Counted from the stretch's first letter, positions 5,199-64,000 are shown. The stretch: 64,000 nucleotides of DNA from Lytechinus variegatus (GCF_018143015.1 NC_054741.1:72164687-72228686), one strand, 5' to 3'. Notes: generated by a model from the sequence alone, not told the origin. Program-made: numbers and translations.

Positions 5199-5499
5199 GT
5201 ACAGTGGAGGGGGTCCTACAAATTTGCAACTGGGTTGAATGAAAGATTCTCATTAAAAATAGCACCTGGATCACATATATTTGTGCCTTGTACATATTGG
5301 AAAACCTAGCTCTCAAGAAATTTTATGAAATAAGATTTTTTTGAATTGCTATGTGATCTGTTCAGACATAAAGACCCATATTCTTGAAAGTGGTTTCGAT
5401 CGCCTTTTATAAGTTTCATTTGTGTCAAATTATTATTTATATTAACATTGATATCTTTGACACAACCGTAATCGTCTATAATTTTTTTTCTTATTGTAG

Positions 5500-6324: not shown

Positions 6325-6812
6325 GTAAGGTACATTTGTTTCCTTAGGATCCATTCATCCAGAATTTATCCTCTGTTAATGATTGTCCCTCTTGTGAACA
6401 GGCATTCATTGATAAAACATCCATAACTGTAATCTTCTTTAAAGCTTGAATTAACAAACGTGGATATCCTTGGGTCCATTGACTAATTTCAATACCAGGG
6501 TTGCAAAATTTATATTTCACAAAGATGGGTTTAGTCAGCCCATGGTTTACATAAGTGATATGACCTTGGATTGTAATAATTATGTCAAATGATACACTTT
6601 AACGAATGGGTTAACTTAACCCAGCTTTGTGAATACAAAACTTGAATACCATTTTGTTAGAGTAAAACCATCGTGATTTTTTGCTATTAAATGGGAGTCA
6701 ACTATCTAATGAATTAGGCTCTTGAACTGCAATGTGTAGCACATGGATGAGTTTAATCGTCAGCTGTGGAAATAAGTTTCAAATAAGAATTTTTGTTTTC
6801 TTTTCATTCTAG

Positions 6813-16087: not shown

Positions 16088-16841
16088 CTGGGGTAGAATA
16101 GAAAAGGTGATTGATTCATCAACTTTAGGGGTCTTGTCACACAGATCCAGGGTCCCGTACCACAAAGGTTAGCAATTAATCGTACACTTGATTTTCATAT
16201 ATTAATTGTACAGTATAGTCAATGCAATCGATCATAAAAAAATGTTCCACAATGACTGCTAAGCTTTGTGATATAAGCCCTAGGTCACTGTCTGAAACCG
16301 TTTCAAATAACTTACTAGTACATGGCAATTGCATTGGAACTGTTTTTGGTTGCCATTTTGATTACCAAGACAGTGCAATGTTGGTGTGGACATTCCATTT
16401 GGAACGGTAAACACGGCAATCAATTTCAATTTCAGAGATCAATTTCAACAGTTTTTAGTGCAGTGCTGTACCAAAATGGATCCTGATTTGTGCTTGGTGT
16501 GCAAGAGTCTTAAAACTTAAAGGCCCAAATTCACAAAATAACTTTAATGCCAAGGGGGGAAAAAGAAGAACATAGAAAACACAATTTTCATACCAAATAA
16601 TTTGAATGAAGAAAAATGCAGGGAATTTCATGTTAGCACAATATCAAAGCTAATTCCTATGAACAAAACCAAGCATCAGAAATAAATCTTCTGAAAATCT
16701 GCTTATCTACATTCTGCAGTACAGAGTTTACATTTTCAAAGATTTCAACTATTATATGTGGTTTATCATATATTTTATACAAGCCAACAATGAAGAATAT
16801 TAAAGTGAGGGCTGAGGACGTTAGAATCTATAGACACATAC

Positions 16842-42589: not shown

Positions 42590-42778
42590 TGAAGTCTATA
42601 CGGCTGGTTGGTGGATTGACGCCCTGGGAGGGCCGAGTAGAAATACTTCATGGTGGTGAATGGGGAACAGTATGTGATGATTTATGGGATCTTGCCGATG
42701 CACATATTGTCTGTTTGAGCATGGGTTACGCATATTCTGTGGCCGCTTTAAGTGGAGCTCCGTTTGGTGAAGGCACAG
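42590..42778 (+). CDS. SRCR-LRR gene: SRCR domain A, N-terminal half exon (SIRLVGGLTPWEGRVEILHGGEWGTVCDDLWDLADAHIVCLSMGYAYSVAALSGAPFGEGTG)
   Basis: Matches the ORF 42460-42798 frame after acceptor tgacag| at 42587-42589. It carries the canonical SRCR start (RLVGG...GRVE..H.G.WGTVCDD.W....A.VVC..LG). Donor |gtaaga follows at 42779, leaving phase 1. Confidence 0.85.
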
Positions 42779-42789: not shown

Positions 42790-43470
42790 GGATTCTAGGA
42801 CATCTACCCCCTGGACATCTACCCCCCGGACATCCACCCCCTTAGGACAAGTACCCCCTAGGACAAGTACCCTCTAGGACATCTACCCCCCGGACATCTA
42901 CCCCCGGACATCCACCCCATTAGGACAAGTACCCCCTAGGACAAGTACCCTCTAGGACATCTACCCCCCGGACATCCACCCCCCGGACATCTACCCCCTG
43001 ACATTTTTTGTCAAATTGCTCGTTCGTTATGATCACTCACAGACGAGCAAAAATATATTTTATCAATTCAAAATCAATTTAAAGATGAGGGGGTAGATGT
43101 CCGGTGGGTGGATGTCCGGAGGGTGGGTGTCCGGGGGGTGGATGTCCGGGGGTAGATGTCCTGGGGGTGGATGTCCGGGGGGTAGATGTCCTGGGGGTGG
43201 ATGTCCTGGGGTGGATGTCCGGGGGGTAGATTTCCGGGGGTGGATATCCGGGGGGGGGGGGGGTAGATGTCCGGGGGTGGATGTCCGGAGGGTGGATGTC
43301 CGGGGGGTGGGTGGATGTCCGGGGGGTAGATTTCCGGGGGGTGGATGTCCGGGGGTAGATGTCCTAGAGGGTACTTTTCCTAGGGGGTACTTGTCCTAAG
43401 GGGGTGGATGTCCGGGGGGTGGAAGTCCGGGGGGTGGATGTCCGGGGGGTAGATGTCCAGGGGGTACATG
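42790..43470. mobile_element. Small foldback-type element in the intron splitting SRCR domain A: inverted arrays of a ggacatc(t/c)acccc(c) tandem unit around a 75-bp spacer
   Basis: 42790-43010 carries direct tandem repeats (ggacatctaccccctggacatctaccccccggacatccaccccc, interleaved with taggacaagtacccc). 43085-43470 is the reverse-complement array (gggggtagatgtccggtgggtggatgtccgg...ggggtacttgtcctaa). The spacer itself contains ttgctcgttcg...cagacgagcaa. Confidence 0.8.
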
Positions 43471-43512
43471 TCCGGATACTAATTAAAGGAATGCACGTAG
43501 AGGGTAGTTATA

Positions 43513-44914: not shown

Positions 44915-45112
<198 letters not shown>

Positions 45113-46368: not shown

Positions 46369-46701
46369 TTCGTCTCGTCGATGGGAGATATCCTTGGGAG
46401 GGCAAGGTGGAAGTATTCAAAGATGGTTCCTGGGGAACCGTGTGCGACAATAACTGGGACATGGATGATGCCAATGTGGTCTGCAGAAGTCTAGGACTAG
46501 GTGAGGCTGTTGAGGTATCCACCTTCAAGGATTGCTGTTTCCAGGACTACCAGGATGTTGACGAGGGATTGAATGACATTTTCTTGGACGAAGTAGAGTG
46601 TCTTGGAAACGAATCTATCCTGCTTGATTGTCCTCATTCTGGTTTTGGAGTTTACAACTGCAACCACACACAGGATGCAACAGTAAAATGCGAAACTGGG
46701 A
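46369..46701 (+). CDS. SRCR-LRR gene: SRCR domain B, single exon (VRLVDGRYPWEGKVEVFKDGSWGTVCDNNWDMDDANVVCRSLGLGEA...NCNHTQDATVKCETG), 8 cysteines
   Basis: Matches ORF 46407-46724. The 333-nt symmetric phase-1 exon lies between acceptor cactgtag| and donor |gtaagc. It has the full SRCR consensus, including HC.G.ES.L..C...G.G...C.H..DA.V.C. Confidence 0.9.
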
Positions 46702-47024: not shown

Positions 47025-47333
47025 TTCGCCTAGTTGGTGGAAGCAACAACCTTGAGGGTCGGGTTGAAGTGTTCTACGATGGTTCCTGGGGTACGGTTTG
47101 CAGTCACCACTTCGATATCATCGATGCTCACGTAGTCTGCAAGAGTCTCGGTCACACCTTCGCACTGAGTGCGTCATCGTACGCAGACTTCGGGCAGGGA
47201 AAAGGCGATATCGTCTTGGATGGTCTCCACTGCACCGGTGGCGAATCGAATATTTACGAATGCGAAAGTGATGATACGAATTTCTTCAAATGCTTTCATC
47301 AAATGGACGCGGGAGTCACTTGTTCACCAGAAG
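47025..47333 (+). CDS. SRCR-LRR gene: SRCR domain C, single exon (IRLVGGSNNLEGRVEVFYDGSWGTVCSHHFDIIDAHVVCKSLGH...DAGVTCSPE), 6 cysteines
   Basis: Matches ORF 47069-47365. The 309-nt symmetric phase-1 exon lies between acceptor gttacag| and donor |gtaaaa. Confidence 0.9.
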
Positions 47334-47981
47334 GTAAAAATACTGAATTGGTGTTTGAAAGCTAATTACTGAACCTGACATGTACTTTTTCAAAAATATT
47401 GTCCATCCTTAGATATGTGTTATTTGGCTCTATTGAACATGATGAATATTAATATCAAGATTCTCAATATCAATCGTTTTCACCATTATTAAAAGTCAAT
47501 CGCATAGAATACATTACTCTGCTAGCTAATTATGTAAAGAGGTGGGTTTTTTTTTTGGGGGGGGAGATGGCACATACTCCCGCAACATTTGTTTAAACGG
47601 GGAATCCACACATTATAAGCCAGAACTAAATCTTGACCCGAATCCGTATCATTGCCATCATCCTAATCCTCACTCCATTATCAACCAAAATCCCATCACA
47701 TCAATATTTCAAACTTACAAACCTTACCATAGTCGTCAGAGAAATTAGAATAAGAGCAATTGTTACAAGAGTAGGCCTATATGTCATGTTACAGAAGGGG
47801 CTACTCATAGATTTAGAGTTGTTTCCAGTAAAAAAAAATGCAAAAATTGGAAGAGTAAGTTTGAATGTTAAAGATAATAATAACAAACCGACATCCAACA
47901 TAGAGAGTGGCCCTGGTCAAATTGGGAAGAGCAGAAGAGAATATAATTTTAGATTATTATAGCTTTATATTGCCAACACAG

Positions 47982-48287
47982 ATTACGCCGTCTTCCTCGT
48001 CAACGGGAGCACGTATCTAGAGGGTCGGGTGACGGTTGCTTATCAAGGCTACCTAGGTACTGTCTGCGACACCTCTTGGGATCTAAAGAATGCTAATGTC
48101 ATCTGTAAAAGTCTAGGTTTCGGACACGCCGTGAGCATCAATGACTTTGGTCCAGGGATCGGAGACATCATCCTCGACGACATTCATTGTGTTGGCAACG
48201 AGAGTAGCATTTTCAATTGTTCTCATGGCGGGCTTGGGGTTCATAACTGTAATCATTCCCAAGACGCTGGAGTAACATGTTTCGGAG
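47982..48287 (+). CDS. SRCR-LRR gene: SRCR domain D, single exon (DYAVFLVNGSTYLEGRVTVAYQGYLGTVCDTSWDLKNANVICKSLGFGHA...DAGVTCFG), 6 cysteines
   Basis: Matches ORF 48029-48382. The 306-nt symmetric phase-1 exon lies between acceptor aacacag| and donor |gtaaca. Confidence 0.9.
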
Positions 48288-49347: not shown

Positions 49348-49395
49348 AGGATGTCTGTATTACTGGACTGTGTGAGACTAACATATTTCCAAAAG
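49348..49395 (+). CDS. SRCR-LRR gene: cysteine-containing micro-exon (EDVCITGLCETNIFPK)
   Basis: The 48-nt phase-1 to phase-1 exon is in frame with SRCR-D and lies between acceptor gtttacag| and donor |gtaaga. It overlaps the ORF 49077-49412 frame. Confidence 0.6.
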
Positions 49396-49730: not shown

Positions 49731-49784
49731 GCACCGGTAAATGTATTCCAGTAGTTCAAAACTGCTTCGTCGACGGTACTTGGG
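49731..49784 (+). CDS. SRCR-LRR gene: cysteine-containing micro-exon (GTGKCIPVVQNCFVDGTWG)
   Basis: The 54-nt phase-1 to phase-1 exon lies between acceptor caaacacag| and donor |gtaaga. Confidence 0.55.
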
Positions 49785-50030: not shown

Positions 50031-51998
50031 GATGCATATGGGAATCCGGAATAAATAGGTTAATCTTCTATTTGTATGCCTGATGTAGTTATCAATACCT
50101 TAGCTGACTGTTAATTTCAAGATCAGAAATACATTCCTGAAATTTAACGTTTATTTTTGGCTCTAATGACAACGTTCGCCCCACTGGACTGATCAGTCCA
50201 TTCATGGCGATACCAACATGGTCCAGTATGACATGGTATGACAAATGTGTATATACTTCTACGAGTTTTCACCTTACATGTTATTAGATTGAATGTCGTA
50301 GCTAGCCCTGCATAAGTTATTTATTGATTCTCGTTTAATCTATAGGACTATTTTGCATACCCCAAAGACCATCGGTGCATAAATCTGCTGCAATAGAATG
50401 CATGTGAGTAAATGATAAAAATAATACAACTGACAACGTACTTTGTAGATCGAATGTAGCTATTTAGTTTATAGCGTATAATACATGTATATTGATTTCC
50501 TGTCACTCTTCAGTCCCATCTTTGATGCAATAGATTTATTTAATCAATTCGATACTCTGACACTTTTGTGGGAATGCGCATTAATGGGAAAACAATACAG
50601 TGTTACAGTTTATGCAGATGATACCTTCTTAATTCAGCACAGGATTTGAAGTGCACCCTTACAACTTTGGATGAAATTACGAATATATCAAACCTTAGAA
50701 TTATTATAGTAACAACTTTGATGATACGGATTGGCAGGAAATGAAGCTTCCATGTTACGTGATTAAACATGTTAAAGATTTACAGTAGAATCATCACACA
50801 CAGTTTGATCACAATTATCAAAATAAAGTTAATTATTGACTTCCTAGGAAATTTAAACATTATGAAATCATCTTTAATACCAATGTTGAATTTCCTGAAT
50901 TTATTTTTTTCCGAAACCAATATTTGAAATAATGTATGATGTTTGACGATGCTTGTAGGAATTTAAATGGCAGGAAAACCTGATAAAATAAGTAGGAAAC
51001 AACTGTATAGTTATAGAGGGGTTAAATTTACTTATATTTGTATGCACTCCACGTCAATAAAAACTTCGTGGATTAGAAAATGGATATAAATAAACTTTCT
51101 TCAATATCATGGCCTGTACAATGCTATCCGAAATTGTTTAATAAAGAATGTCATACCAATTCCAGGGCCATGAGATATACATGTACTACTCCAGAAACAT
51201 TGCGTTTAAAACTTGATCTGTTGATACTTGAATAAAAATGGTTTTGCTAATATTTTCCATTCTCCTTTGAATTATAATTTGAAAGAATGTTAACATCTCA
51301 CATAATAATAGTTATAATAATAATAATAATAATGATAACAAAAATGTTTGACAATGCTACGTGTTTTTTTATTTTCAAGTTATTATTCCCAAATACTGTC
51401 ACTAATCATATTACTGGAAGCTGTAATCATGACGTTTTTAAAGGAGAATGAAACCTTCGGAACAAGATAGCTTGTGTGAAAAAAAAAATCAAAGAAACAT
51501 ATCAATGAAAGTTTGAGAAAAATCAGACAAATAATGAGAAAGATATGAGCATTTGAATATTGCGATCACTAATGCTATGAAGATCCTCATATTGACAATG
51601 CGACAAAGATGTGTGATGTCACTTGTGAACAACAGTACTCTCCCCATTACTTTTAGTATATATTTCACTTAAAATGCCTCCCTTATTATATTTATCAGTA
51701 GATCATGTATTCTTTTTATAGGAGGGCATGTAATACATATTTTTAAAGAATACATCATGAATTTTAAAGAGTTTGTACCACCATAAGAAAAAGCAAGAGA
51801 CATTTTGGGGGTATTTTATAGTCCATCAAGTGGAAAGTTGTTTACGTGTGACATCACACATCCTTGTCGCATTTCCAATGGGAGGATGTCCATAGCATTT
51901 GTGACTGCAGTATTCAAATGCTCATAACTTTCCCAATTATTGTCCCATTTTTCTCAAACTTTCTTTGTTCTTATTCTTTGATATTTCTGTTTTGACAG

Positions 51999-52155
51999 AA
52001 GCCTACTTGTTCCAGAGCTTTCATTCCCCTTTAAGTTCAAAGATACTAACTATATTTCGATGCAATTGCCTTTCTCGCAGGGGGCTCGAAGACTACAAGT
52101 CCGAAAACATGACGAGACAAATCATTTTAGATCGTCAAAGGAATGTCAAAAATTT
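51999..52155 (+). CDS. SRCR-LRR gene: bridging exon (EAYLFQSFHSPLSSKILTIFRCNCLSRRGLEDYKSENMTRQIILDRQRNVKN), possible LRR N-terminal cap
   Basis: Open frame shared with ORF 51965-52159. It lies between acceptor ttttgacag| and donor |gtaaga. The exon enters at phase 1, matching the micro-exons, and leaves at phase 2, matching the first LRR exon, and it contains a CxC motif. An alternative acceptor exists at 52079. Confidence 0.45.
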
Positions 52156-52976
52156 GTAAGATCTGGATTATATTATTAAAAAAAATTATTATAGTATATT
52201 CATTTCGGTATAAATCCCAAGGTGTGTGCTACTTTTCCAAGTTTAATTAAGATATATTGTTTATATAAATGTTAATGCTCTAAAACAGTTTGTTCTATGA
52301 TGAAAATGGAAAAAGTTGACTTTAAGTGGATAGATTTGGTGATTTGTAATGAAAATCTACATATGATTTGTCAAGTTTGATCGGGTGCCCGATCCAAAAG
52401 GTATCGTATCTTTTTTTTTACCAAACCAATCCCCAGCATGGAATGGAATCAAGTTTCAGAATATAATTATGTCTCTAGTTTTCTGATTATATGCTGGATA
52501 AGTGATCATATGGACATTTTAAAGGTAAAAAAAACTTACCTAGAAACTGTGATTGCTAGATATCTAATACAAACGAAATCCCATTTTCACAAGTGATAGA
52601 CCGCCGACAAATTATAGCCACTACACTTTAGAAAGATTGGCAAGCTAGATAATATCCGAATGATGTAATTCACATTAATGATCCTTCACTAAAGCTTCAG
52701 GTGGGTTTTTAAAAACAATACAAGTTATATATTCCTGGGATTATCATTTTCTAAGAAAAATATCGTAAAGTCTACATGTTGTTCATTTGACGTGAACATA
52801 ATAATTATGTTAATATTGCTTTAATGTGAAGTATAGTTTACTTGTGTATCGATAAGCCCATGATATGATTTATGCAATCAACTTAGTAATAATAATTACC
52901 TAACTTTTAAGCTATTATCTCGGTTTGAGGTAACCAGATGTTTACCATGTCTAACATTATATTCTCTACTTTGAAG

Positions 52977-53048
52977 GTATTTGAATAAAACGTTTATTGA
53001 AGTGCTACCCGCTGGTGCATTTTATGGAATGAAGAATCTCGAATGGCT
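52977..53048 (+). CDS. SRCR-LRR gene: LRR exon 1 (YLNKTFIEVLPAGAFYGMKNLEW)
   Basis: 72-nt exon with phase 2 on both sides, between acceptor ttgaag| and donor |gtgagt. It carries the LRR consensus L..N.I..LP.GAF.G...L..L. Confidence 0.75.
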
Positions 53049-54033
53049 GTGAGTATTGAGTATTTTTATTCCTATTTTGTTGTTTCATTCAAAGAGAACA
53101 CTGCGCATATATTCTATTCAATATGTCAATGATAGTGCATAATAATTCATGGAAGATTATGGCACAGTGACACCTGTGAAACATACGTCAGATCGACCAA
53201 AGTGATGATAACGTTATTTCCCTTGACATATAATCGGTCGTTTTATAGCTTGTTCCGTTGGCGTGACTGTATTTGTGGGAATACAACCGTGTTGTTGTTC
53301 TGCTCTGTGGCGCCTTGAACATCTTATCAAGATGGAAATCTCATGTATTATTTTATTATTATTAAACCTAACTCCTCCCTAATACTGGTACTTTGTAAAC
53401 ACATTAAATATAGATTACTGAAATGTTTTGTGTAAACTTGTGATAATTACGTACACAAGCAATAATCTTCTTAAGAGGATATCGGATAAGTGATAGTAAT
53501 ACTTTTCTACAGCTGAAAAATTAAACATTGTATTTCTGTTTTCCACAGCTACCCATTATTTCTATTTGAAAAATATGTATTATAAATCATCTTTAATTTT
53601 TTTTATGTTTTGAATTTTTTTATAAGTTTGACATTTGAACTTTACTTAAGTTCAGTGACTCCTGTGCCATTCTGCAATTTCTTTAAAATCTTACTGCATT
53701 CAAGAAGTGATCTTTTCTGTACAGTAGCGTTTTATAAAATGAAGTTCGTTTTTACTTTCATTGATCTGATAGCCATATTACAATTCCTTAAAAAACCTAT
53801 TGTATTCAAGAGTGTTTTTTTGTAATTTTTAGTGGATTTAAAGAAAAAAGGAACCCATGTTGCTTTCACTGAATTGTCTCTCATTTTTGCAATTTATTTT
53901 AAAACTAATTGGATAAAAGGCTTAACATTGTTTGATAAAATAAATCGTTTTGAACAAAATTGAAAAAAGCTTTTGCATTCCCTTTTTTCCCCTGAAGGAA
54001 ACCATTTTACATGTTTTAAATTTTTACTCATAG

Positions 54034-54105
54034 AGACCTGAATGATAACAATATAACGACGATTTTTCCTGATACCTTTTCCGGACTGAGCAACCTTTTG
54101 TATCT
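54034..54105 (+). CDS. SRCR-LRR gene: LRR exon 2 (DLNDNNITTIFPDTFSGLSNLLY)
   Basis: 72-nt phase-2 exon between acceptor ctcatag| and donor |gtaagt, carrying L.L..N.I..I....F..L..L. Confidence 0.85.
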
Positions 54106-54581
54106 GTAAGTATGAAATTTCAATTAAATTATTTCAAAGATTTGATTAAATATTTTATATTCCTGACTAGGCTGATGCTGATTGAATACAAAATAATTTA
54201 ACGAATTGGTCTAGGTCTAGATGTATACATACTCCCAATATGGTAATTTTTTCCATTTAGGTAACTTTATTTTTGTTTCAATAACACAACAAAAAAAAAA
54301 CAACCCCAAAAAATGATGGAAAAGAAACCTTAACAGTTTCATGCAACGAGAACATCTGGTAATTGTTAATCCAACAAAGTTATATTGGCGTAGATCGGAA
54401 AATAGAAATATTTGCCGAGTTAAGGTGTATACAAATTTACAAATTCATACTTTATAGAAGATGAACTTGTTTGTATATTGCATATTGTATTGTGAATTAT
54501 GAGGATAATAATGGTCACTTAAGTGATAGATAACCCGATAAGCGTTTGATAGATGCGGATTGTCTTATACTTTGATTACAG

Positions 54582-54653
54582 ATACATTACAAACAACAAC
54601 ATTTCTTCCATTCCCGATGGAACCTTTTCTGAGTTGGACAACTTGGTTTGGTT
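54582..54653 (+). CDS. SRCR-LRR gene: LRR exon 3 (YITNNNISSIPDGTFSELDNLVW)
   Basis: 72-nt phase-2 exon between acceptor gattacag| and donor |gtaagt. Confidence 0.85.
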
Positions 54654-55352
54654 GTAAGTGAAACAGATATTTATTTTATTCCTCACGGCAACCACCTTTG
54701 TGTTTAAAGTAGGAAGTTGAGCATGGCATCTCTTGCTGAAAATTAAAATACAAATAAAAATGTATACAAACATTGATAGTTACAATTGATATTACCTAGG
54801 TAGCCTACCTTCACCCGACCCTCAAGATATGTGCTCCCGTTGACTAGGAAGACGGCGTAATCTGTATTGGCAAATCAACTTTTAGATCCTTACTTGTTCT
54901 TAATTTGATCAAATAGATATGGGAAATACCTCAACAATATCGATGAAAAGATTTTTCTAATCACATGATATCTTTGCTGTTACCGAGAACCAAATTGTTC
55001 TACACACAGTGTCCTTACAGTGCTATTCATAGATGTATTATAATGGTTTACTCATCGAGAAATCCTCAGGGCAATTTATTGTTTTTCAAATGGAAATTTT
55101 CCAGGAAAACTAATTTTACATTAATAAATCTTAAAGAAAAACACCTAGCGAGCGACTATTAAATATATATTGGCGCTCAATTTTTTTCGTGAATGTAATA
55201 GTCAATATGAAGATATTGAGATGACAGTATTTCAATTGTTGGATTTGTTATTCTTTTGCAAATATAAAAACAGGATAATTTCTTTCATTGTGTAATATAG
55301 CATAGCATTCCACTTTGTTTTATTTTTGCGTCGAATCTGATATATTTTACAG

Positions 55353-55424
55353 AGAACTAAACGGGGCAGGAATAACGAGTGTATCAACAAATTCTTTTGA
55401 GGGACTTCACAACCTGCAACATTT
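55353..55424 (+). CDS. SRCR-LRR gene: LRR exon 4 (ELNGAGITSVSTNSFEGLHNLQH)
   Basis: 72-nt phase-2 exon between acceptor ttttacag| and donor |gtaagt. Confidence 0.85.
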
Positions 55425-56013
55425 GTAAGTGAAAAAACATGATTCCATGAACACGATGAAGGTGAAAAATATTGGTTTACAGCATTAGCTTATTGGCGCT
55501 TTTTCTTGTTTAAAGATGCACTTTTGTGCATTCACAGATTTGTAAGACTTATAAAAATCATTGTTCTTAGACCCAAGATGGTAGGTCAAAACTCTGATGA
55601 TTTTTAATACCGGACTTTCCCTCTTTATCCAGAGTTAGTATATACGTGTATATTGCTTTCTCTCTTAATTTTTCCCAAATGTGTGTTATTTGTAAACTTG
55701 CTGATCTGTAAATCAGTCCAAAAAGCTGGAGTGGACTACACATTGCACTTTGATTAATATGTATTTCTCCTATTTTTTTTCTTGGATAATCTTGACCCCG
55801 ATATTTCGATCTACCCGCCCGTCACCCATCTTTAACCTAAACACGCATTGCGGGTATGGGTAACAATGCATTAAGCTAAGGGTTACCAAACTGTATACAT
55901 TTCATATAGCATGGAAAAGGATGTGATCATTCCTAAATCGGATGCATAATGATAATCTGTGTTTTTAAAAATGTCTTTATATTTATTTTTAAATCTGTTT
56001 GTTTGATTTATAG

Positions 56014-56085
56014 GAACTTGGATGGAAACCTGATTGAAACCATACCAACAGACATCTTCATAAAAACATACAGTTTGAATTACTT
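56014..56085 (+). CDS. SRCR-LRR gene: LRR exon 5 (NLDGNLIETIPTDIFIKTYSLNY)
   Basis: 72-nt phase-2 exon between acceptor gatttatag| and donor |gtgagt. Confidence 0.85.
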
Positions 56086-56411
56086 GTGAGTATATTTGGG
56101 CATAAGGAATACATAAATTGACGCACGTGAAGATGGAATGTAGTTATTATTTCAATATCTAGTGTAACGGTACGTAAATGATTACTTTTTTTCTTACCAA
56201 TTAGTTAATTTTTTTTATATCATTTTACCTTTTCGGTTATTCAATACGATATGTGTGTGCAACCAAATAAGAAATTATCATGTACAAATACCCAAAACAT
56301 TGATTATTCATTTACTCCATGAATGAGAAAAAAATGTCTTCTTTGACAAAATACATAAAATGGGGAACAAAGTAAGACAAGTATCTAATTCATCGTTGTC
56401 TACATTGCTAG

Positions 56412-56483
56412 ATATCTACAGGAAAATCGAATAAGATGGATTCCAGATGACACATTCAGTAACTTATTCCTTCTTTTCTATCT
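56412..56483 (+). CDS. SRCR-LRR gene: LRR exon 6 (YLQENRIRWIPDDTFSNLFLLFY)
   Basis: 72-nt phase-2 exon between acceptor attgctag| and donor |gtaagt. Confidence 0.8.
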
Positions 56484-57637
56484 GTAAGTATGTCAAGAAT
56501 ATCATATATTAAATCACACTTTTCCTTCACTTTATAGGGCGTTGCAAAATAACTTAAACGCTCAATTGAGACGCCATTCATGTAATTCACTATTTGATGT
56601 TGTATTATTGAAATGCATGTAAATACCTACATGCATCTTTCTTTCCTTTTCTTTAACTTTACATTTTACTGGATTTATGCTCATATTCTCACCATGTGTC
56701 TTGTTTCTGTTTTACTGTTTATATTATGCGAATATTTTAGTAGGAGGATGCACTCTACAAGCTTTCTGAGCAGCCTCCTACATTTCAAACCTGTTTGAAT
56801 AGTTGTCTTGATTATTGTAATATACATTTTCCTTGTTCTATCGATTATGCATGAAGTTCCTTTTCAATTCTGACAAAAAAAATCATTTTTAGATTTTAAC
56901 GTTAGCCGATATTTTTGGAAAACGGTAATATAAATATTGATTTTCTGATGATGTCATTGTCCCCATTTTACTGATCCTTATTTTATTGTAAATCATCATT
57001 AGTACATATGTGTGTGTAAAACATAACTCCTTTGAAACAAAACAAGTTTCAAGAACAATTTTCCGAACTAAATCAGTTGTCAGCCACACTTTTACATTAT
57101 TTTGTAGAGCACACATTGAATAAAAATGATACAATTGAAAACAAAGGAATATCTATGTGGATATGATATCATGAGCTCGTTCGCTGGATGCGGACATGCA
57201 TTCAAGCGTTTCACGAAAATAATGCAAAACTTTGAAATGTCATATCTTTCTTATTCCTCGTCCGATTTTGATTTTATTTTATCCTATTCGTTAAATTTAC
57301 ATAATTTTCTTTATGCATGCAAGTCAAGAGTTATTATCAAACGTTCTAGTCAAAGTCGACTAGAACAAATTGATTTCTTACTAGAAAATATGGGAATAAA
57401 TGGCTATACATATATTACACCCAGCGAACATGTATTCTGACTAGTTTGTTTTCAAATAACGACTGGCAGTCATAGGACTGCTGTTTCTCATCACAAGATA
57501 TTTCTTAAGGTAAAGACATTACACCGAGGAAACCTATAGATTATCTCATTTTTAGCAAACAATATTTCATTCTCTTTCGATTCATTTAATGTAATTTATA
57601 TAAATTTGATTACCGTTTTTTGTTACTTTCATCAACA

Positions 57638-57709
57638 GTGATCTCCATGACAATCTGCTTGAGGTTATTACTGATAGAACCTTGTATGGATTATCTTTCC
57701 TTTTTTACT
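57638..57709 (+). CDS. SRCR-LRR gene: LRR exon 7 (DLHDNLLEVITDRTLYGLSFLFY)
   Basis: 72-nt phase-2 exon between acceptor catcaacag| and donor |gtaagt. Confidence 0.85.
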
Positions 57710-57882
57710 TGTAAGTGTTCTTTAAATTGATAACAAAGATGAATTTTAGTACATTTCTTTACATGTTTTCGCATCTAACTTGTATACATGAATGCATATC
57801 AATATTCATATATATATATATCTTTCATTTTTGTCCTGATATAACAGCTCATAATTAATTTCTTATTTATAATGCGTTACAG

Positions 57883-57954
57883 AGATCTTTCTTATAACAA
57901 CATCGAAGTCATATCACGGGCTGCATTCTCTGATCTGTTTGCATTGGATCTACT
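57883..57954 (+). CDS. SRCR-LRR gene: LRR exon 8 (DLSYNNIEVISRAAFSDLFALDL)
   Basis: 72-nt phase-2 exon between acceptor gcgttacag| and donor |gtaagt. Confidence 0.85.
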
Positions 57955-58439
57955 GTAAGTAGACAAATATTTAACATATATTTAACCGCAGGAAAAGTTA
58001 GTTTTTTCAGTTTCACGTTAGACAAACGGTAAGACTCACAAACATTAAAAGCAGGCTGACCACCTTGTTTAAAATACTTTCAGTGATTGAATGCAGTATG
58101 TGTATTGTTGTTCTTTGGAATGAATAAGTTTGAATTAACATAAAAAAATACAAAATTTATGTATATGTAGATATATTCTTGACAGAAATTTCAGGGTCTG
58201 TTGCACCACTAATTATCAACCCGCGACAATTTGTGAAAAAAACTGACACCACAATTGTCCCCCCTTCCCAAATTTTCGCCTCGCGACAATTTGTGCTGCA
58301 CGTGCCGGTCTCAATTTTTGAGCATATTGTACCGATTTGTGTCGGCAAAAAGAAACCTAGAACCACACATTTTCGCCCATTACACAATTGTCTTCAACCA
58401 CCAGTCTGGTGTGTGTGTAGTGTATGCGCGTCTTGTCTT

Positions 58440-58500
58440 GGTGTGTGTCGTTTTTTGTGATAAGTGTGTGTTTGTGTGTGTGTGTGAGGGTGTTCGTGTG
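58440..58500. repeat. Microsatellite (GT)n/(TGTG)n, intronic
   Basis: gtgtgtgtcgttttttgtgataagtgtgtgtttgtgtgtgtgtgtgagg. It accounts for the Cys/Val-rich ORFs 58255-58672. Confidence 0.9.
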
Positions 58501-58619
58501 CGTGGGTGTGTGTATTATCATAATTGTTATTATTTCATTAATAATTTTTCTTAATTTAATCTACTTATTTATCATTATTATTTCATTTATTTATTATTAT
58601 TATTTTTTTTTTTTGGGGG

Positions 58620-59530
58620 GGGTTTCCACTTGGTCTAGCAGTAGCAGTTGTTCAAACTCTCTGATCGTCTAACACCATATGAGCTAAACCCATTTTCTCG
58701 AGTAACAAGTTTGGTCTAACTTCCACTCGGTCTAATGTATAGGACTTGGTCGAATTCTTGCTTGGTCTCATGACCACTCGGCATAATTGCCAAATCGTCG
58801 AATAGCCAAGTGGTCTAATCGTCTTTTCGTCTAAATCCCAAATAAGTATTTCCAGTCTGTTACAGGAATTGACTAATTGGTGTTAGACCAATTAGATACT
58901 AGACCAAAAAGAAATTAGACCAAACGGAAATGAGACGGAATGGAAATAGGCAAAATGACAATTAGACCATGAGGTAAACTAAGTTGTAGACGAAGTGGTA
59001 TTAGACCATGTATAGGATGAGGCTAAACGGCCATTAGTCAAATTGGGTTTAGACCAACTGGCAATCTCCCTTTGGGGAGGCTAATATAGAGAACATCAGC
59101 AGATCCCGTGGAAAATTCGGTTTTTATCCACTCGGCCTAATAACATTTGGACTAGTCCTCGGTTTGTCTACTAACATATGGGCTTAACCCATTTGGTCTG
59201 CTAATAATTCAAAAATTTGGTGTAATATATACTTGGTCTCATTCTCTTTTGGTCTTATGACCAATTCGTCTAATAGCCAAATGGTCTAATTGCATTTTCG
59301 TGTAATGCCCAAATGAATATTTACCAGTTTTTTACTGAGAGCGACCAAGTGGTGATAGGTCAAATGGACAATAAACGGAGTGGTCATTGGATGAAATGTG
59401 AATAGGCGAAGTGCTACATAGATCAAAAGGTAATTAGACCGACTGGTTAGAGACAAAATGGAATCAGACTATGTGATATGAGATGGAAAAGACATTAGTC
59501 AAAGTGGGTTTAGGCCAAATGGCAATTTAT
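58620..59530. mobile_element. Two tandem copies (58620-59070 and 59100-59530) of the palindromic ggtctaa/ttagacc MITE family, in an LRR-gene intron
   Basis: Each roughly 440-bp unit has a left half rich in ttggtcta/cggtctaa and a right half rich in tagacca/ttagacc. The two units are about 80 percent similar, and the family is related to 10100-10520. Confidence 0.7.
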
Positions 59531-60356
59531 GAAAAAAATATTGGAACCGTCTCTGCGGTGGAATCGAAAACTATCGTATTCGTGAAGGCAAAAACTATTG
59601 GAGACGTTTCTGAGACAGATTTTGAGACTATTTTGAGACGATTTTGAGATTCCCAAGACTAATGAAATGTCATGGGGCCTCAGAAGACGTCTTTGCGACA
59701 AGTTTTAAAATCGTCTCAAAACCGTTTAAAAGTGGTCCAAAATCCGTCTCAAACGTGAGATACCATCATCAGTTTCACTCACAGTGTTACTAATTAACAC
59801 ACATACATACACCCTCACAACATACACAGTTTCTTACGAACTCTGCATTACCCTTTGTGTGTGTGTTCATGGAGAAAAGTAAATTAAGTGTTAGGTGAAA
59901 TGGGGCGACAATGTGTGGTGTCCCCTCCTCCATAAATTGTCTTAGGCGACACTTCGTGCAGGGGTGACAATTTGTGGTGTCAGTTTTTGCACAAATTGTC
60001 GCTCACTTGTCAGTGGTGACAATTTGGGGTGCAACAGGGTCGCTGCTTTTGAGTTGAAATGTCGTCAAACATGACTGTCGTTAAACCGGGCGTAGAGGCT
60101 CTTGATCATAGCGCTGTGTTTGACCGTAGACTCTTCTTGTTCTCGTAGATCAATGTTGTGACCTTGGAATTGCGTACCTCTCGAATAGAGATACTAAATT
60201 CCCCATAATTTATTTAATTAATGTCTCACAAATGTTCATACATGTTTTCATGCAGCCTACAGGACATGGTTTGAGCAGAATTCATTCGCCATTGCAATCA
60301 CCATTACTCCCTTTAAATTAATTTAAAAAAGAACATTGTTCATCTTTTTTTCACAG

Positions 60357-60428
60357 CGATTTGAAGAACAACAGGATCAAGATATTACCAGAGATCATTT
60401 TTAAAGATTTACACAACCTATTTTATTT
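60357..60428 (+). CDS. SRCR-LRR gene: LRR exon 9 (DLKNNRIKILPEIIFKDLHNLFY)
   Basis: 72-nt phase-2 exon between acceptor ttttcacag| and donor |gtaagt. Confidence 0.85.
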
Positions 60429-60916
60429 GTAAGTTAACATGTAATTTTCTAATGTGTTCAGATTAAATAAGATCTATCAGAATTCTCTCATACCTTATTA
60501 TGATTTCAGATTTTGAATATCCTGACTTTATTATATAGTTTCCGAAGTTACAATTCCTCCACACTCCAGTACTTTTCAAATAGCAACATAGAAGCGATGA
60601 TACTCGATTTCTTTACTTCCTTTTCATCTCATGATGATATTCCTTAGTCTTTAAAAAAGACAACTTAACATGAAATAAATTGAAAGCAGATAATTAAATA
60701 ATTTAATTACACTCTAAATTTAGACCAGTAAATGTCAGTTTTAGAGATGAAATCAATTATAGGTCTACATGGAAATTATACTATCCTACCATTTCGTTGT
60801 TTTTTTTGCTTACAAGATGACCAGAATACTAAATGACCAGTAGCAAAAATATTGTACTGTATAAAATTATCTTCATATTGATATGATTTCCATTCTTCAT
60901 ATATACCTCTTGTCAG

Positions 60917-60988
60917 ATACCTGCAAGATAATAATATTGACGTTATTCCGGAAGGAGCTTTTTCTGAAATGAAGACATTGAGAGTCCT
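60917..60988 (+). CDS. SRCR-LRR gene: LRR exon 10 (YLQDNNIDVIPEGAFSEMKTLRV)
   Basis: 72-nt phase-2 exon between acceptor cttgtcag| and donor |gtaagt. Confidence 0.85.
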
Positions 60989-61528
60989 GTAAGTTTTCTT
61001 AAAAAGTTAATATTTATGATAAAATTCTTTAAAAATTTGAAAGGCCATACAAAAATAATGATGGATTCGATCACAATAGAAATCACATCCTATTCTATAT
61101 TTCACAAATTCTATCTCGTCTTTACTGATAAAAATGTATATGTTGCTTTAGTTTGGCCAAAGTCTATCATAATGATTGCAGTTGTTGTATTTTGATCTTT
61201 TCCTCATCGTAACAAGTATTTTAACACGAACACCTCTAGAGGAGGCGAGTCGATCTCTTTCTTAATTTTGTCAGCATCCTTGGATGTTCTTTTTCGGAAG
61301 ATAGGGAGTTGCAAGAAAGATGAAAGGTGATAAATTAAGCATATTATACTATTATTCTTTGTATATTTAAAAGTTATAATTCTATTGGCCTTTAATGAAA
61401 AAAGTTGACCTTTTGTAACGACGTATTGTAAACATTAAAAATAATTAATGTTGTCTCGCCAATTCTTCTTGCTGATACCTTATTGTACACCACGATGATA
61501 TACGTGTTTGTTGTTTATTTTGTTTCAG

Positions 61529-61600
61529 ATTGTTGCAAAATAACAACATTACTGAAATACCAGATAAAGCATTCATCAACCTGTCTCGCCTTACAACTTT
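61529..61600 (+). CDS. SRCR-LRR gene: LRR exon 11 (LLQNNNITEIPDKAFINLSRLTT)
   Basis: 72-nt phase-2 exon between acceptor tgtttcag| and donor |gtaagt. Confidence 0.85.
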
Positions 61601-61903
61601 GTAAGTGTGCCCATCTAATTTGTATGAGAAGTGTGAGGATGAATGTTTGTGTAACGTAAGCACTGGGGAGTGTTGATTCGGTGTAGGTCCAATTGAAATA
61701 ACTTTTTTAGGTGTATAGTTGTTTTCTTTGCTTTTTTAAACTTCTGTTTGTATGATAAAAAATGACTCCAACACACACATCAATAATAGTTCTAGATTGT
61801 AATATCGTTCTTTCAACGCCCTCTTTTACATCTCATATTCTGGAACAATATTTTGTTGCTTAATTTCGAAAACTTACCCTTTTTATCATATTTTTTATTC
61901 CAG

Positions 61904-61975
61904 GAATATATCATCCAATTCAATCACATATTTGCAAAATGGTGCGTTTCTGGGACAGGAAAACTTGGAATATTT
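61904..61975 (+). CDS. SRCR-LRR gene: LRR exon 12 (NISSNSITYLQNGAFLGQENLEY)
   Basis: 72-nt phase-2 exon between acceptor ttattccag| and donor |gtaagt. Confidence 0.85.
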
Positions 61976-62392
61976 GTAAGTGCCTTTCTATCTAAGCAGA
62001 ATAACATTTCTTACTGTAAAAATGCACTAAATGCCATGAATCACTGTTCTTATTAAAGTAAAGATGCAACGTGTATTGACAAGTAGACTGTTTTCCAAAT
62101 ACTATACTCGATAGCGACCATCAATATCATAATGGTATAGTACACGAAATGAAACACTTCCTAAATATAATTTCTGTTTAAAATATGAAGTGATAATAAT
62201 AACATTAATATGATAAAAAGCGTGATCACTAAGGAGATGACGATGCTAATGACAAGATTTGTGATGATGATGAAAGCAAAACAAACTACAACAATGAAAC
62301 TGATGAAAATAACAATGTAAAGAGGAGACTGGATGAATGGTGCTGCCAAATGTAAACATCTCGGTTTTATTTCGACATGTTTATTTGCACAG

Positions 62393-62464
62393 AGACTTGG
62401 GATACAACAAGATCAAGAGTATCGAAGCTGAATCATTTGCAAATCTGAGTAACCTACTCTATCT
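62393..62464 (+). CDS. SRCR-LRR gene: LRR exon 13 (DLGYNKIKSIEAESFANLSNLLY)
   Basis: 72-nt phase-2 exon between acceptor tttgcacag| and donor |gtgagt. Confidence 0.85.
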
Positions 62465-63018
62465 GTGAGTATTGTTCTTGTTTTTATCTTTAATTATCAA
62501 TTCAAACAAAATGTGTATCAACACCAAAAGCGAGTTGCATATTTTTTTGCCAGAGTTTCTCGATGTGTTAAGTGTCAATGGCATAACTGTATTGCCAGAG
62601 TTTTGTTTATTTGCCAGAGTTTTCTATGGCAAAAGTTTTTTATGCAATAGGACCCAGTGGGGAAAATCATACAAATGACATACGTAGTATATTTTTTACT
62701 CTTAGAAATCGAGAGCATACTTCTTAAAAGTACACTATGAACTTACATGATATTTTGATTTTACAACAAATTTTCCGATCTCATGATATTCTTAATCCCT
62801 TATTGCCATCATTAGTACCAATGTGTGAACATGTTTGAAAAAAGTAATCGGAAGGAATTTCATATAAACATAAAGTAAACTATATTTTGTTAAGCTAACA
62901 AGATTAACATGAAATGTGAATTATGAATTAATATATATATTTTTCAGCATGAAATGTTGTTTGATATAAAATATGAAAAGTAGATCAATACCACTCTATT
63001 GTATTCTGTTTTCTTCAG

Positions 63019-63090
63019 ATTTCTACTGGATCTTGATTTAGACACAATTTCCTACGAAATCATGAACGATCTAACTGGACTCAAAGCTCT
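63019..63090 (+). CDS. SRCR-LRR gene: LRR exon 14 (FLLDLDLDTISYEIMNDLTGLKA); the gene continues beyond the window
   Basis: The 72-nt phase-2 exon lies between acceptor tcttcag| and donor |gtaagt and leaves an open phase-2 junction. No stop codon or terminal exon is seen before 64000. Confidence 0.8.
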
Positions 63091-64000
63091 GTAAGTTTTC
63101 GTGTAGGAGACATGGAATATTCATTTGTATACAATTTGTTAAAGTGGTAATTGTTTGTTAAAAGTTGCGATATTTTGATATTTTTTTTAAATTATTGATA
63201 TGTAATTAAAATTACACGATTGATAGGATTTTGACACTGTTCCTTGTGTGTATCGAGATTTCTTTGCCACACCGACACCGTGGGTCATTGAATTGAATAC
63301 ATTTTATTGTGCGTTTAAGAAATCGTTTTCACATTGAGTTAAAATGATTGTACATGAAAACATAGACGAAATGATACAGAAAATACACATTCCTGTGGGA
63401 GTACAAATATAATGTAGTAGGCAATTTGTTACCATTGAGAATCAGTCTAAATTAAGGCTGGAAATAAAATGGGCAAGTGAGGTAGGCAAATGAACAGTAT
63501 GGGAAATCAGAAAAGGAAGCAACTACAAAAGCATTGGTCATGATGAGAATATATTCAAGTTCAAATATTTTGTTCCCATGGGTATCTGATTTTTGACTAA
63601 GATTTTTGTTGAAGCATCACATTTTGGGGTATGTTCTTTCGAGGTCTGAGTATTCTATTTTTTTATGATACCTGGGTTTGTTATTTATTCTTTAGCTTTG
63701 AGTAACTTGGAATCTAAGAAATATATATTAGATTGTATCCACTTACATTACAATAAAAATAATAATAGTAATAATTCAATTATCTATGTAGACTTGAAGT
63801 GCTTATTAGCAATGGGATAGAGCAATATTATACAGAAGAGTAGAAATTAAATGATAAACCCAAACAATAAATGTTTACCATGTTAGGCTAAAAAATATAC
63901 AATACAAACGTATTCAAGATAGTTAACTTCCACGGTTCCATTCCCTGCCTATCTACAAGCAACGTCTATGAAAGGAATAATTATTTTTCCCCAAAAGCTG

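What the first reader, a model, noticed from the sequence alone, without database searches (positions are those of the whole stretch)
52977..63090. Strict one-LRR-per-exon organisation: 14 exons of exactly 72 nt, all flanked by phase-2 introns
Every LRR exon I delineated is 72 nt (24 codons) with a 1-nt plus 2-nt codon split, so the junctions read CT|N or TT|N and regenerate the Leu that ends each repeat. Any subset of exons can therefore be skipped or duplicated without a frameshift, which permits combinatorial LRR-number variation by alternative splicing or exon duplication. The same layout (about 72-bp LRR exons, all phase 2) is known for the ectodomains of glycoprotein-hormone-receptor/LGR-type GPCRs. 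That would predict a 7TM region downstream of this window.
Basis: partly seen in the sequence, partly recalled or inferred. Interest (0 to 1): 0.65.

Follow-up and report, generated by a model that had tools for sequence, protein, structure and literature searches.

The report
Sea-urchin LGR receptor: one-LRR-per-exon array
The region is the ligand-binding part of a sea-urchin receptor gene of the hormone-receptor-like LGR type. Each of 14 leucine-rich repeats sits on its own 72-base exon, a layout already classical for this receptor family, though this gene unusually carries scavenger-receptor (SRCR) domains in front and is split in the current genome annotation.

Summary
There are 14 exons of 72 nt (52977-63090, + strand). 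All are AG/GT[AG]AGT-bounded and phase 2/2, and every junction codon is Leu. A 15th phase-2 exon of 75 nt (52081-52155) was missed.

The window is Lytechinus variegatus DNA. The exons form the LRR ectodomain of an LGR-type class-A GPCR:
- NCBI protein XP_041456566.1 matches LRR10-14 at 100% and continues into a hinge and 7TM.
- The L. pictus orthologue (XP_063966265.1, 1183 aa) matches my spliced model as one ungapped 795-aa block.
- That orthologue carries hinge, 7TM and tail on a single terminal exon, which here would start about 137 nt past the window end.

Upstream in the window, four SRCR domains and a 6-Cys linker belong to the same gene. The L. variegatus and S. purpuratus annotations split that gene.

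Exon skipping is not shown for this gene. Paralogue isoform models do lack single 24-aa LRRs, one verified as one 72-nt exon, and a starfish paralogue shows a recent exon duplication.

The exon layout is long known for LGRs. The SRCR-for-LDLa architecture appears undescribed. Interest is modest.

The parts
42590..42778 (+). SRCR domain 1, first half-exon (phase 1 in and out). The 5' end is an acceptor, so at least one upstream signal-peptide exon is still missing.
   Evidence: tblastn to S. purpuratus P0028; splice and phase analysis; Pfam SRCR 1.2e-112 for the four domains
44973..45104 (+). SRCR domain 1, second half-exon (phase 1/1)
   Evidence: same exon in the L. pictus locus
46369..46701 (+). 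SRCR domain 2 exon (333 nt, phase 1/1)
47025..47333 (+). SRCR domain 3 exon (309 nt, phase 1/1)
47982..48287 (+). SRCR domain 4 exon (306 nt, phase 1/1)
49348..49395 (+). Linker exon 0 (48 nt, phase 1/1), encoding EDVCITGLCETNIFPK
   Evidence: orthologous 48-nt exon in L. pictus
49731..49784 (+). Linker exon 1 (54 nt, phase 1/1), encoding GTGKCIPVVQNCFVDGTW. The equivalent exon is skipped in paralogue isoform P0125.
50346..50403 (+). Linker exon 2 (58 nt, phase 1 in, phase 2 out), encoding GLFCIPQRPSVHKSAAIEC-M. This is where the gene switches from phase-1 to phase-2 introns.
52081..52155 (+). 75-nt cap/LRR0 exon (phase 2/2), encoding GLEDYKSENMTRQIILDRQRNVKN.
   Evidence: 75-nt orthologous exon in L. 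pictus
52977..53048 (+). LRR1 exon, 72 nt, phase 2/2 (YLNKTFIEVLPAGAFYGMKNLEW)
54034..54105 (+). LRR2 exon, 72 nt, phase 2/2
54582..54653 (+). LRR3 exon, 72 nt, phase 2/2
55353..55424 (+). LRR4 exon, 72 nt, phase 2/2
56014..56085 (+). LRR5 exon, 72 nt, phase 2/2
56412..56483 (+). LRR6 exon, 72 nt, phase 2/2
57639..57710 (+). LRR7 exon, 72 nt, phase 2/2
57883..57954 (+). LRR8 exon, 72 nt, phase 2/2
60357..60428 (+). LRR9 exon, 72 nt, phase 2/2
60917..60988 (+). LRR10 exon, 72 nt, phase 2/2. It contains the internal Met at which the truncated L. variegatus model XP_041456566.1 starts.
61529..61600 (+). LRR11 exon, 72 nt, phase 2/2
61904..61975 (+). LRR12 exon, 72 nt, phase 2/2
62393..62464 (+). 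LRR13 exon, 72 nt, phase 2/2
63019..63090 (+). LRR14 exon (degenerate last repeat, FLLDLDLDTISYEIMNDLTGLKA), 72 nt, phase 2/2
63091..64000 (+). 5' part of the last intron. The hinge+7TM+tail exon is predicted to begin about 137 nt beyond the window end.
   Evidence: 88.4% alignment to L. pictus intron L001:31873-32800; the terminal exon starts at L001:32937

Best explanation
The 14 exons, plus a 75-nt cap exon, encode the leucine-rich-repeat ectodomain of an orphan sea-urchin LGR-type class-A GPCR. This is the L. variegatus orthologue of L. pictus XP_063966265.1.

The full gene reads as follows:
- an unidentified signal-peptide exon;
- four SRCR domains on phase-1 exons;
- a family-specific 6-Cys linker on three mini-exons;
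- the 75-nt cap exon;
- 14 LRR exons of 72 nt, all phase 2;
- one terminal exon with a short Cys-containing hinge, all seven transmembrane helices and the tail, lying just beyond the window.

Each 72-nt exon encodes exactly one 24-residue repeat. The split codon is the Leu that opens the next repeat's beta-strand.

Inferred from solved LGR/LRR structures: the 15 repeats stack into one curved solenoid whose concave face binds a ligand. Binding is passed through the hinge to an RXFP-like 7TM.

The symmetric phase-2 layout is inherited from the LGR ancestor, which grew by exon duplication. It makes any LRR exon skippable or duplicable in frame. This is realised in paralogues but not demonstrated for this gene.

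Shown: exon geometry, colinearity with the orthologous model, domain content, purifying selection. Inferred: single transcript in L. variegatus, solenoid structure, ligand binding, signalling.
For: Exon geometry and statistics.

Origin and 7TM continuation:
- P0001 is 100% identical over LRR10-14 and then carries 7tm_1.
- The 836-aa in-window model aligns to L. pictus P0240 residues 1-795 as one ungapped block at 95.3% identity.
- In the L. pictus locus all 24 exons map exactly: a 75-nt exon, 14 x 72-nt phase-2 exons, and a 1165-nt terminal hinge/7TM exon.
- The window tail aligns to the last intron.

One gene rather than two:
- Phases are continuous from SRCR4 through the linker to the cap.
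- S. purpuratus P0028 spans SRCR1 to LRR3.
- Paralogues combine a signal peptide, SRCR, LRR and 7tm_1 in one protein, even though SRCR was left out of the query.

Selection: LRR exons are 95.8% identical to L. pictus against 83-88% for introns. There are 42 nt differences but only 12 aa changes, giving a rough dN/dS of about 0.13. S. purpuratus has 1:1 72-nt orthologues.

Extracellular character: 8 N-x-S/T sequons and no Cys in the cap+LRR region.

7TM affinity: best PDB match is RXFP1 (1.1e-41), then TSHR, FSHR and LHCGR (about 1e-30).

Layout known in LGRs: PMC11378527, PMC9927937, PMC11678308.
Against: - No transcript evidence was available for L. variegatus itself. NCBI annotates the locus as two models: P0239 'DMBT1-like' and P0001 starting in LRR10.
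- The 7TM exon is outside the window and was not read in this species' DNA.
- No signal peptide was found. Two unverified candidates exist.
- Ligand and function are unknown.
- The orthologue and paralogue models are Gnomon predictions, not cloned cDNAs.
Confidence: 0.9

Rival explanations
1. Two separate genes, as currently annotated in L. variegatus and S. purpuratus: a secreted SRCR 'DMBT1-like' protein, and a short LRR-GPCR starting within LRR10 (L. variegatus) or LRR14 (S. purpuratus). On this reading, LRR1-9 would be unused or relict exons.
For: NCBI models P0239 (354 aa; SRCR2-4 plus linker exon 0, then reading into the intron) and P0001 (490 aa) are separate. S. purpuratus P0270 is 7TM-only.
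Against: - P0001 and P0270 begin at internal Met codons in the middle of an LRR and lack a signal peptide.
- P0239 ends by read-through into an intron.
- LRR1-9 have consensus splice sites, are open, and are conserved with mostly silent changes.
- L. pictus has a single 1183-aa model.
- P0028 bridges SRCR to LRR3.
- Paralogues with genuine signal peptides have SRCR, LRR and 7TM together.
Confidence: 0.06
2. A programmed cassette-exon diversification system: LRR exons are combinatorially skipped to generate many receptor variants, analogous to DSCAM or the brown-alga ROCO proposals.
For: - All exons are symmetric and every skip junction gives Leu or Phe.
- Five different single-LRR deletions appear among paralogue isoform models.
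- One is verified as exactly one 72-nt exon.
- The family is tandemly expanded.
Against: - No isoforms are recorded for this gene or its L. pictus orthologue.
- Only 1-3 variants are recorded per paralogue, each missing one exon, which is compatible with low-level splicing noise captured by Gnomon.
- All donors here are strong GT[AG]AGT sites.
- In human LGR4 and LGR5, loss of LRR exons impairs ligand binding (PMC9927937, PMC11678308).
- Exon number is strictly conserved across about three genera.
Confidence: 0.1
3. The LRR exon array belongs to a non-GPCR LRR protein (Slit-, LRIG-, chaoptin- or IGFALS-like). Some of these also have 72-nt LRR exons (from memory).
For: The LRR part alone hits IGFALS, LRRC15, LRIG1, podocan and chaoptin as well as LGR4/5.
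Against: Exact identity with a protein that continues into a 7TM, and full colinearity with the L. pictus LGR model. No LRRCT, Ig or EGF exons follow.
Confidence: 0.01
4. A decaying pseudogene copy within a tandemly expanded family.
For: The family is large and many models are fragmentary. No signal-peptide exon was found.
Against: All 23 in-window exons are open with intact splice sites. There are 12 aa changes against about 30 silent changes versus L. pictus. The orthologue is intact in three species.
Confidence: 0.03

Closest known systems
Relaxin-family receptors RXFP1/RXFP2 and invertebrate type C1 LGRs (Drosophila Lgr3/Lgr4 types)
   Same: - The 7TM is closest to RXFP1 among solved structures (1.1e-41).
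- The hinge is short.
- The LRR ectodomain is built from 24-residue repeats on about 72-nt phase-2 exons.
- The nearest non-echinoderm hits are relaxin-receptor-like proteins (P0151, P0153).
   Different: - There is no LDLa module. Pfam and profile searches of the linker were empty, and four SRCR domains take its place.
- There are 14-15 LRRs against about 10 (from memory).
- The 7TM is intronless. It lacks both the phase-1 introns in TM2/TM5 of the RXFP/LGR3 type and the phase-0 intron after TM7 of the LGR4 type (against PMC11863921).
GRL101 (Lymnaea) / type C2 LGRs, the name NCBI gives these proteins
   Same: An LRR plus rhodopsin-type 7TM, with extra N-terminal cysteine-rich modules.
   Different: - GRL101 is defined by multiple LDLa repeats (PMC8286064, PMC4079206), and none are present here.
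- Veenstra (PMC8286064) finds a single true GRL101 orthologue per ambulacrarian. This gene belongs instead to a large echinoderm expansion.
Glycoprotein-hormone receptors (LHCGR, FSHR, TSHR; type A LGR)
   Same: - The gene layout is the classical one: a run of similar-sized LRR exons all separated by phase-2 introns, then one large terminal exon with hinge and 7TM (PMC11378527 citing Koo 1991).
- The 7TM similarity is second best, at about 1e-30.
   Different: - The hinge is short (about 45 aa) rather than long.
- There are more LRRs.
- SRCR domains are present.
- No LRRNT was detected.
LGR4/5/6 (type B)
   Same: - A long LRR array. The ectodomain hits LGR4/5 structures at about 1e-42.
- 72-nt LRR exons (LGR4 exon 6, PMC9927937).
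- In-frame LRR-exon skipping variants are known (LGR5 delta-5, PMC11678308).
   Different: - The 7TM is much less similar: no LGR4/5 chain appears among the best 60 7TM hits.
- No Pfam LRRNT hit.
- SRCR domains are present.
Brown-alga ROCO LRR exon arrays
   Same: 72-bp phase-2 exons, one LRR each, proposed to be shuffled and alternatively spliced (PMC11378527).
   Different: An unrelated protein family (cytosolic ROC-COR GTPases) in a different kingdom. In ROCO genes the exons are highly similar to each other; here they are only 44% identical.

Membership tests
LGR (leucine-rich-repeat-containing class-A GPCR) family | An extracellular array of typical 24-residue LRRs | tested here: met
   LRR_8 at 3e-89; 14 repeats plus a cap
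LGR (leucine-rich-repeat-containing class-A GPCR) family | A rhodopsin-type 7TM domain on the same polypeptide, C-terminal to the LRRs | tested here: met
   The 7TM is not in the window. XP_041456566.1 (same species, 100% identical over LRR10-14) carries 7tm_1 at 1.6e-31. The L. pictus orthologue locus shows LRR14, a 1064-nt intron and then the 7TM exon. The window tail aligns to that intron.
LGR (leucine-rich-repeat-containing class-A GPCR) family | LRR exons of about 72 nt separated by phase-2 introns, with the hinge and 7TM on a large terminal exon | tested here: met
   literature PMC11378527 and PMC9927937
LGR (leucine-rich-repeat-containing class-A GPCR) family | A conserved Cys-containing motif just before TM1 (F-x-P-C-E-x-L-x-G in LGR4-type sequences) | tested here: inconclusive
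   P0001 has SPLDTCGSLYP before TM1, against AFKPCEYLLGSW in P0003 and P0018. This is a visual resemblance only.
Type C LGR (RXFP / GRL101) | N-terminal LDLa module(s) | tested here: not met
   No Ldl_recept_a hit anywhere in the 836-aa model. A profile of the linker finds nothing in Pfam or PDB even at E<=10. Some other echinoderm family members do have LDLa.
Type C LGR (RXFP / GRL101) | 7TM sequence closest to relaxin-receptor-type 7TMs | tested here: met
   RXFP1 7tmw at 1.1e-41, against 1e-30 for type A. No formal phylogeny was made.
RXFP/LGR3-type (type C1a) | Conserved phase-1 introns within TM2 and TM5 (PMC11863921) | tested here: not met
   The L. pictus orthologue and a paralogue have an intronless hinge-7TM-tail exon.
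Type B LGR (LGR4-6 / bursicon receptor) | An LRRNT cap, about 17 LRRs, and a type-B 7TM | tested here: not met
   No LRRNT (PF01462) hit. There are 15 repeats. LGR4/5 chains are absent from the best 60 7TM matches.
Type A LGR (glycoprotein hormone receptors) | A long hinge region and cystine-knot hormone ligands | tested here: not met
   The hinge between LRR14 and TM1 is about 45 residues. Ligand is not testable with these tools.
SRCR superfamily (group B-like, one domain per exon) | SRCR domains of about 100-110 aa with conserved Cys, on phase-1 exons | tested here: met
   Pfam SRCR at 1.2e-112 with 4 stretches. Exons are phase 1/1. Domain 1 is split over two exons.

The most novel reading that the evidence does not exclude
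Sea urchins have a tandemly expanded family of SRCR-LRR-7TM receptors. These are LGRs in which scavenger-receptor domains replace the LDLa module. They may act as pattern-recognition or chemosensory GPCRs that use in-frame LRR cassette skipping and duplication to vary the binding surface.

More broadly, a large share of the echinoderm 'GRL101-like' 7TM-only gene models are truncated LGRs whose arrays of 72-nt LRR exons were missed by annotation. These models may overlap with the expansions treated as odorant-like receptors; that overlap is speculation.
Probability: 0.2. Interest if true: 0.65.

Novelty: new variant of a known kind. Interest (0 to 1): 0.32.

Why it matters
The exon layout itself only re-confirms a textbook feature of LGR genes, now for an echinoderm lineage-specific branch. 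It supports an ancient origin of the one-LRR-per-phase-2-exon design.

Three things are practically useful.
1. The locus is mis-annotated in two reference sea-urchin genomes. The gene is split, and LRR1-9 are orphaned in L. variegatus.
2. The same truncation seems common for this receptor expansion in sea urchins, starfish and brittle stars. Receptor repertoires, and any classification as 'chemoreceptors', that are built on 7TM-only models may be missing large ectodomains.
3. An LGR with SRCR domains in place of LDLa is an architecture I could not find described. It links two families that are hugely expanded in echinoderm immunity and sensing.

If the LRR skipping seen in paralogue models is regulated, it would offer a tractable case of receptor diversification by cassette LRR exons.

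Tried and rejected
- **More LRR exons elsewhere.** I looked in the window on both strands for exons of 72 nt with LRR motifs. None exist besides the 14 and the 75-nt cap.
- **Faulty motif.** My first exon-register LRR regular expression was mis-specified and matched nothing. The corrected version matches 11 of 14 exons, with no false hit on the minus strand.
- **Recent exon duplication within this gene.** Rejected: mean pairwise nt identity is 44% and the maximum is 61%.
- **Linker as a degenerate LDLa or LRRNT.** No support from Pfam on single sequences or from a 5-sequence profile against PDB.
- **Fetching the L. variegatus locus beyond 64000.** P0001 and P0305 are not on record. I used the L. 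pictus and S. purpuratus loci instead.
- **5' signal-peptide exon.** Two candidates were found (16322-16385 and 27942-28044). They lie outside the L. pictus DNA I hold, so they remain unverified.
- **Literature for SRCR together with LGR/GRL101 in echinoderms.** Nothing was found. 'The echinoderm adhesome' is not held. The library is open-access only, so absence is weak evidence.
- **Slit/LRIG-type identity.** Considered and rejected.

Full report
**1. The observation**

Reading 52500-64000 shows short coding blocks bounded by polypyrimidine-AG and GT[AG]AGT in AT-rich DNA (31-38% GC). This is a eukaryotic gene.

- Each is 72 nt and ends in CT or TT.
- Each is followed by GTAAGT or GTGAGT.
- Each encodes one 24-residue LRR.
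- All 14 native junction codons are Leu.

With the strict donor, the pattern occurs 14 times on the + strand and 0 times on the - strand in the entire 64 kb. A Markov null gives 0.05 per 10 kb, with a maximum of 2 in 200 simulations. The concatenated 335 aa score LRR_8 at 3e-89.

One omission: a 75-nt exon at 52081-52155, also phase 2/2 and ending TT|G = Leu, precedes LRR1.

**2. What the region is**

The first homology search gave a 100%-identity hit. [quoted passage not shown] It starts at a Met inside LRR10, runs through LRR14, and continues into a hinge and a 7tm_1 domain. So the window is L. variegatus DNA and the LRR array belongs to an LGR-type GPCR.

A second hit, S. purpuratus P0028 ('DMBT1-like'), carries four SRCR domains, a Cys-rich linker and then LRR1-3. 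tblastn placed its SRCR and linker exons at 42.6-50.4 kb of the window on the same strand.

I delineated every exon and phase:
- SRCR1 is split over two exons.
- SRCR2, SRCR3 and SRCR4 have one exon each. All SRCR exons are phase 1.
- Three linker mini-exons are 48, 54 and 58 nt. The last one switches the gene from phase 1 to phase 2.
- The 75-nt cap follows, then the 14 LRR exons.

The cluster of P0001 contains the L. pictus orthologue P0240 = XP_063966265.1 (1183 aa, 'relaxin receptor 2-like'). My 836-aa in-window model aligns to its residues 1-795 as a single ungapped block at 95.3% identity. Every predicted junction is therefore reproduced.

On the L. pictus locus (L001) the protein maps exactly onto 24 exons:
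- Exon 9 is 75 nt.
- Exons 10-23 are 14 x 72 nt, all phase 2.
- Exon 24 (1165 nt) holds the hinge, the whole 7TM and the tail, 1064 nt after LRR14.

The last 910 nt of the window align (88.4%) to that intron, ending 136 nt before the exon. The predicted 7TM exon therefore lies about 137 nt past the window.

In S. purpuratus (L002), LRR2-14 have one-to-one 72-nt orthologues in order. The annotated model P0270 starts at a Met inside LRR14.

**3. The annotation is split**

L. variegatus has P0239 ('DMBT1-like'; SRCR2-4 plus linker exon 0, then read-through into the intron) and P0001. Linker exons 1-2, the cap and LRR1-9 are in no model. S. purpuratus is split likewise, into P0028 and P0270.

Evidence that it is one gene:
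- Phases are continuous across the SRCR, linker and LRR exons.
- L. pictus has a single model.
- P0028 bridges the SRCR domains to the LRRs.
- Paralogues (P0121, P0124, P0125, P0130, P0129, P0254) combine a signal peptide, SRCR, LRR and 7tm_1 in one protein. They were found with a query that contained no SRCR.

**4. The exons are functional**

Against L. pictus the LRR exons differ at 42 of 1008 nt (95.8% identity), while introns are 83-88% identical. Only 12 of the 42 differences change an amino acid, giving a rough dN/dS of about 0.13.

The cap+LRR region has 8 N-glycosylation sequons and no cysteine, as expected for an extracellular solenoid.

**5. Which kind of LGR**

The hinge+7TM is closest to RXFP1 among solved structures (1.1e-41). 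TSHR, FSHR and LHCGR follow at about 1e-30. LGR4/5 chains do not reach the best 60.

The type-C hallmark, an LDLa module, is absent. Neither Pfam nor a profile of the conserved 6-Cys linker (alignment A1) finds LDLa, LRRNT or anything else.

A search with the hinge+7TM alone returned at least 197 clusters at E<=1e-30.
- The listed 120 are essentially all echinoderm 'GRL101-like' proteins or unnamed. They come from Strongylocentrotus, Lytechinus, Diadema, Patiria, Acanthaster, Asterias and Amphiura.
- Some have LDLa+LRR.
- Some echinoid ones have SRCR or CUB+SRCR.
- Many are 7TM-only.

This gene is therefore a member of a large echinoderm expansion of type-C-like LGRs with variable N-terminal modules. 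It is not the single true GRL101 orthologue discussed by Veenstra (PMC8286064).

**6. Is the layout family-wide, and are 7TM-only models truncated?**

The 10 kb upstream of three 7TM-only models contained same-strand 72-nt phase-2 LRR exons ending CT/TT with GTAAGT-type donors:
- at least 9 in S. purpuratus (L002);
- 4 in the starfish Patiria (L003);
- 3 in the brittle star Amphiura (L004);
- none on the opposite strands.

This is a small sample. It suggests systematic loss of the tiny LRR exons by gene predictors.

**7. The alternative-splicing and duplication idea**

The arithmetic holds. Any subset can be removed in frame, and of the 91 possible skip junctions 82 give Leu and 9 give Phe.

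For this gene I found no isoforms. The exon number is fixed at 14 in three genera. The exons are old, with a mean pairwise nt identity of 44%.

Paralogues do show both processes.
- L. variegatus XP_041472087 (916 aa) has three 892-aa isoforms, each lacking a different single 24-aa LRR. One of them has the junction residue changed from L to F, which is the signature of a split codon.
- Two further genes show 24-aa LRR deletions, and one shows a skipped linker exon.
- For the L. pictus pair P0260/P0128 I mapped both proteins on the DNA (L005). Isoform X2 is X1 minus exactly one 72-nt exon, 11122-11193.
- In the Patiria paralogue, two LRR exons are 85% identical with 95-97% identical flanking introns. 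This is a recent exon duplication.

These are Gnomon models, so abundance and regulation are unknown. In humans, loss of LRR exons in LGR4 or LGR5 is in frame but impairs ligand binding (PMC9927937, PMC11678308).

**8. Comparison with what is known**

One-LRR exons of similar size, all with phase-2 introns, followed by a large 7TM exon, have been known for the LH receptor since 1991 (as cited in PMC11378527). The same holds for LGR4 (exon 6 = 72 nt, PMC9927937).

What I could not find described is an LGR with SRCR domains. The library searched is open-access only, and the key sea-urchin 'adhesome' paper is not held. The proteins themselves already exist as automatic predictions in NCBI.

**9. 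Verdict**

The feature is a new variant (SRCR-bearing, intronless-7TM, 15-repeat) of a well-known kind. The exon organisation itself is ordinary for that kind.

Interest is modest at 0.32. The value lies in the corrected gene model, the likely family-wide annotation problem, and the undescribed SRCR-LGR architecture.

**10. Surroundings**

The first 6.4 kb of the window carry exons of an unrelated myosin-motor gene on the + strand. No paralogue sequences occur in 1-42.5 kb.

Noticed in passing
window 2359-2724, 4974-5306, 6148-6423 (+ strand): Open segments matching the myosin head (motor) domain (Pfam Myosin_head, best 8.2e-25). This is a separate upstream gene on the same strand.
   Followed up: partly
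window 54793-54873 (intron 3 of the LRR array): An inverted copy, about 80-90 nt long and 84% identical, of 47970-48059. That source region is the acceptor and 5' end of the SRCR4 exon of the same gene. The copy is absent from the L. pictus orthologous intron, where alignment blocks break at 54794/54865. It looks like a species-specific templated insertion.
   Followed up: partly
window 42798-43004 and 43089-43475 (intron between the two SRCR1 half-exons): Two arrays of a 15-nt minisatellite in opposite orientation: GGACATCTACCCCCT x13 and its complement-like GGGGGTGGATGTCCG x26. Together they form a large potential hairpin and account for the local GC peak of 0.45.
   Followed up: no
window 57955-60356 (intron 8, 2402 nt): Repeat-rich insert with a (GT)n tract, internally repeated units of about 380 nt (58666-59046 against 59266-59528) and inverted terminal-looking segments. 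The orthologous L. pictus intron is 4419 nt, with about 2 kb of extra sequence. This is probably transposon-derived.
   Followed up: partly
window ~30085 (+), ~43902 (+), ~37889 (-): The same translated string (…RYLLYTEL*FT*NGLGLIF…LLII.K.GKS) recurs three times. This indicates an interspersed repeat family.
   Followed up: no
window 16322-16385 and 27942-28044 (+ strand): Two ATG-initiated, hydrophobic, phase-1-ending mini-ORFs could be the missing signal-peptide exon. The first, MAIALELFLVAILITKTVQCW, loosely resembles paralogue signal peptides (…VCILTRIAFCQ). Neither is verified.
   Followed up: partly
L003 (Patiria miniata) 4203-4274 and 5404-5475: Two 72-nt LRR exons upstream of a 7TM-only model are 85% identical, and their flanking 60 nt of intron are 95-97% identical. 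This is a recent tandem exon duplication in a starfish paralogue.
   Followed up: partly
L005 (L. pictus paralogue) 3001-3002; L002 (S. purpuratus) 10001: Annotation artefacts. Model P0260 begins with a 2-nt 'exon' (AT|G), which is the split Met codon at the linker/cap junction. Model P0270 begins at a Met inside LRR14. Both point to N-terminally truncated models.
   Followed up: yes
L002 15591-20708: About 3.5 kb downstream of the S. purpuratus orthologue's 7TM exon, the next called gene starts with an SRCR domain on the same strand. This is consistent with a head-to-tail tandem array of SRCR-LGR genes.
   Followed up: no
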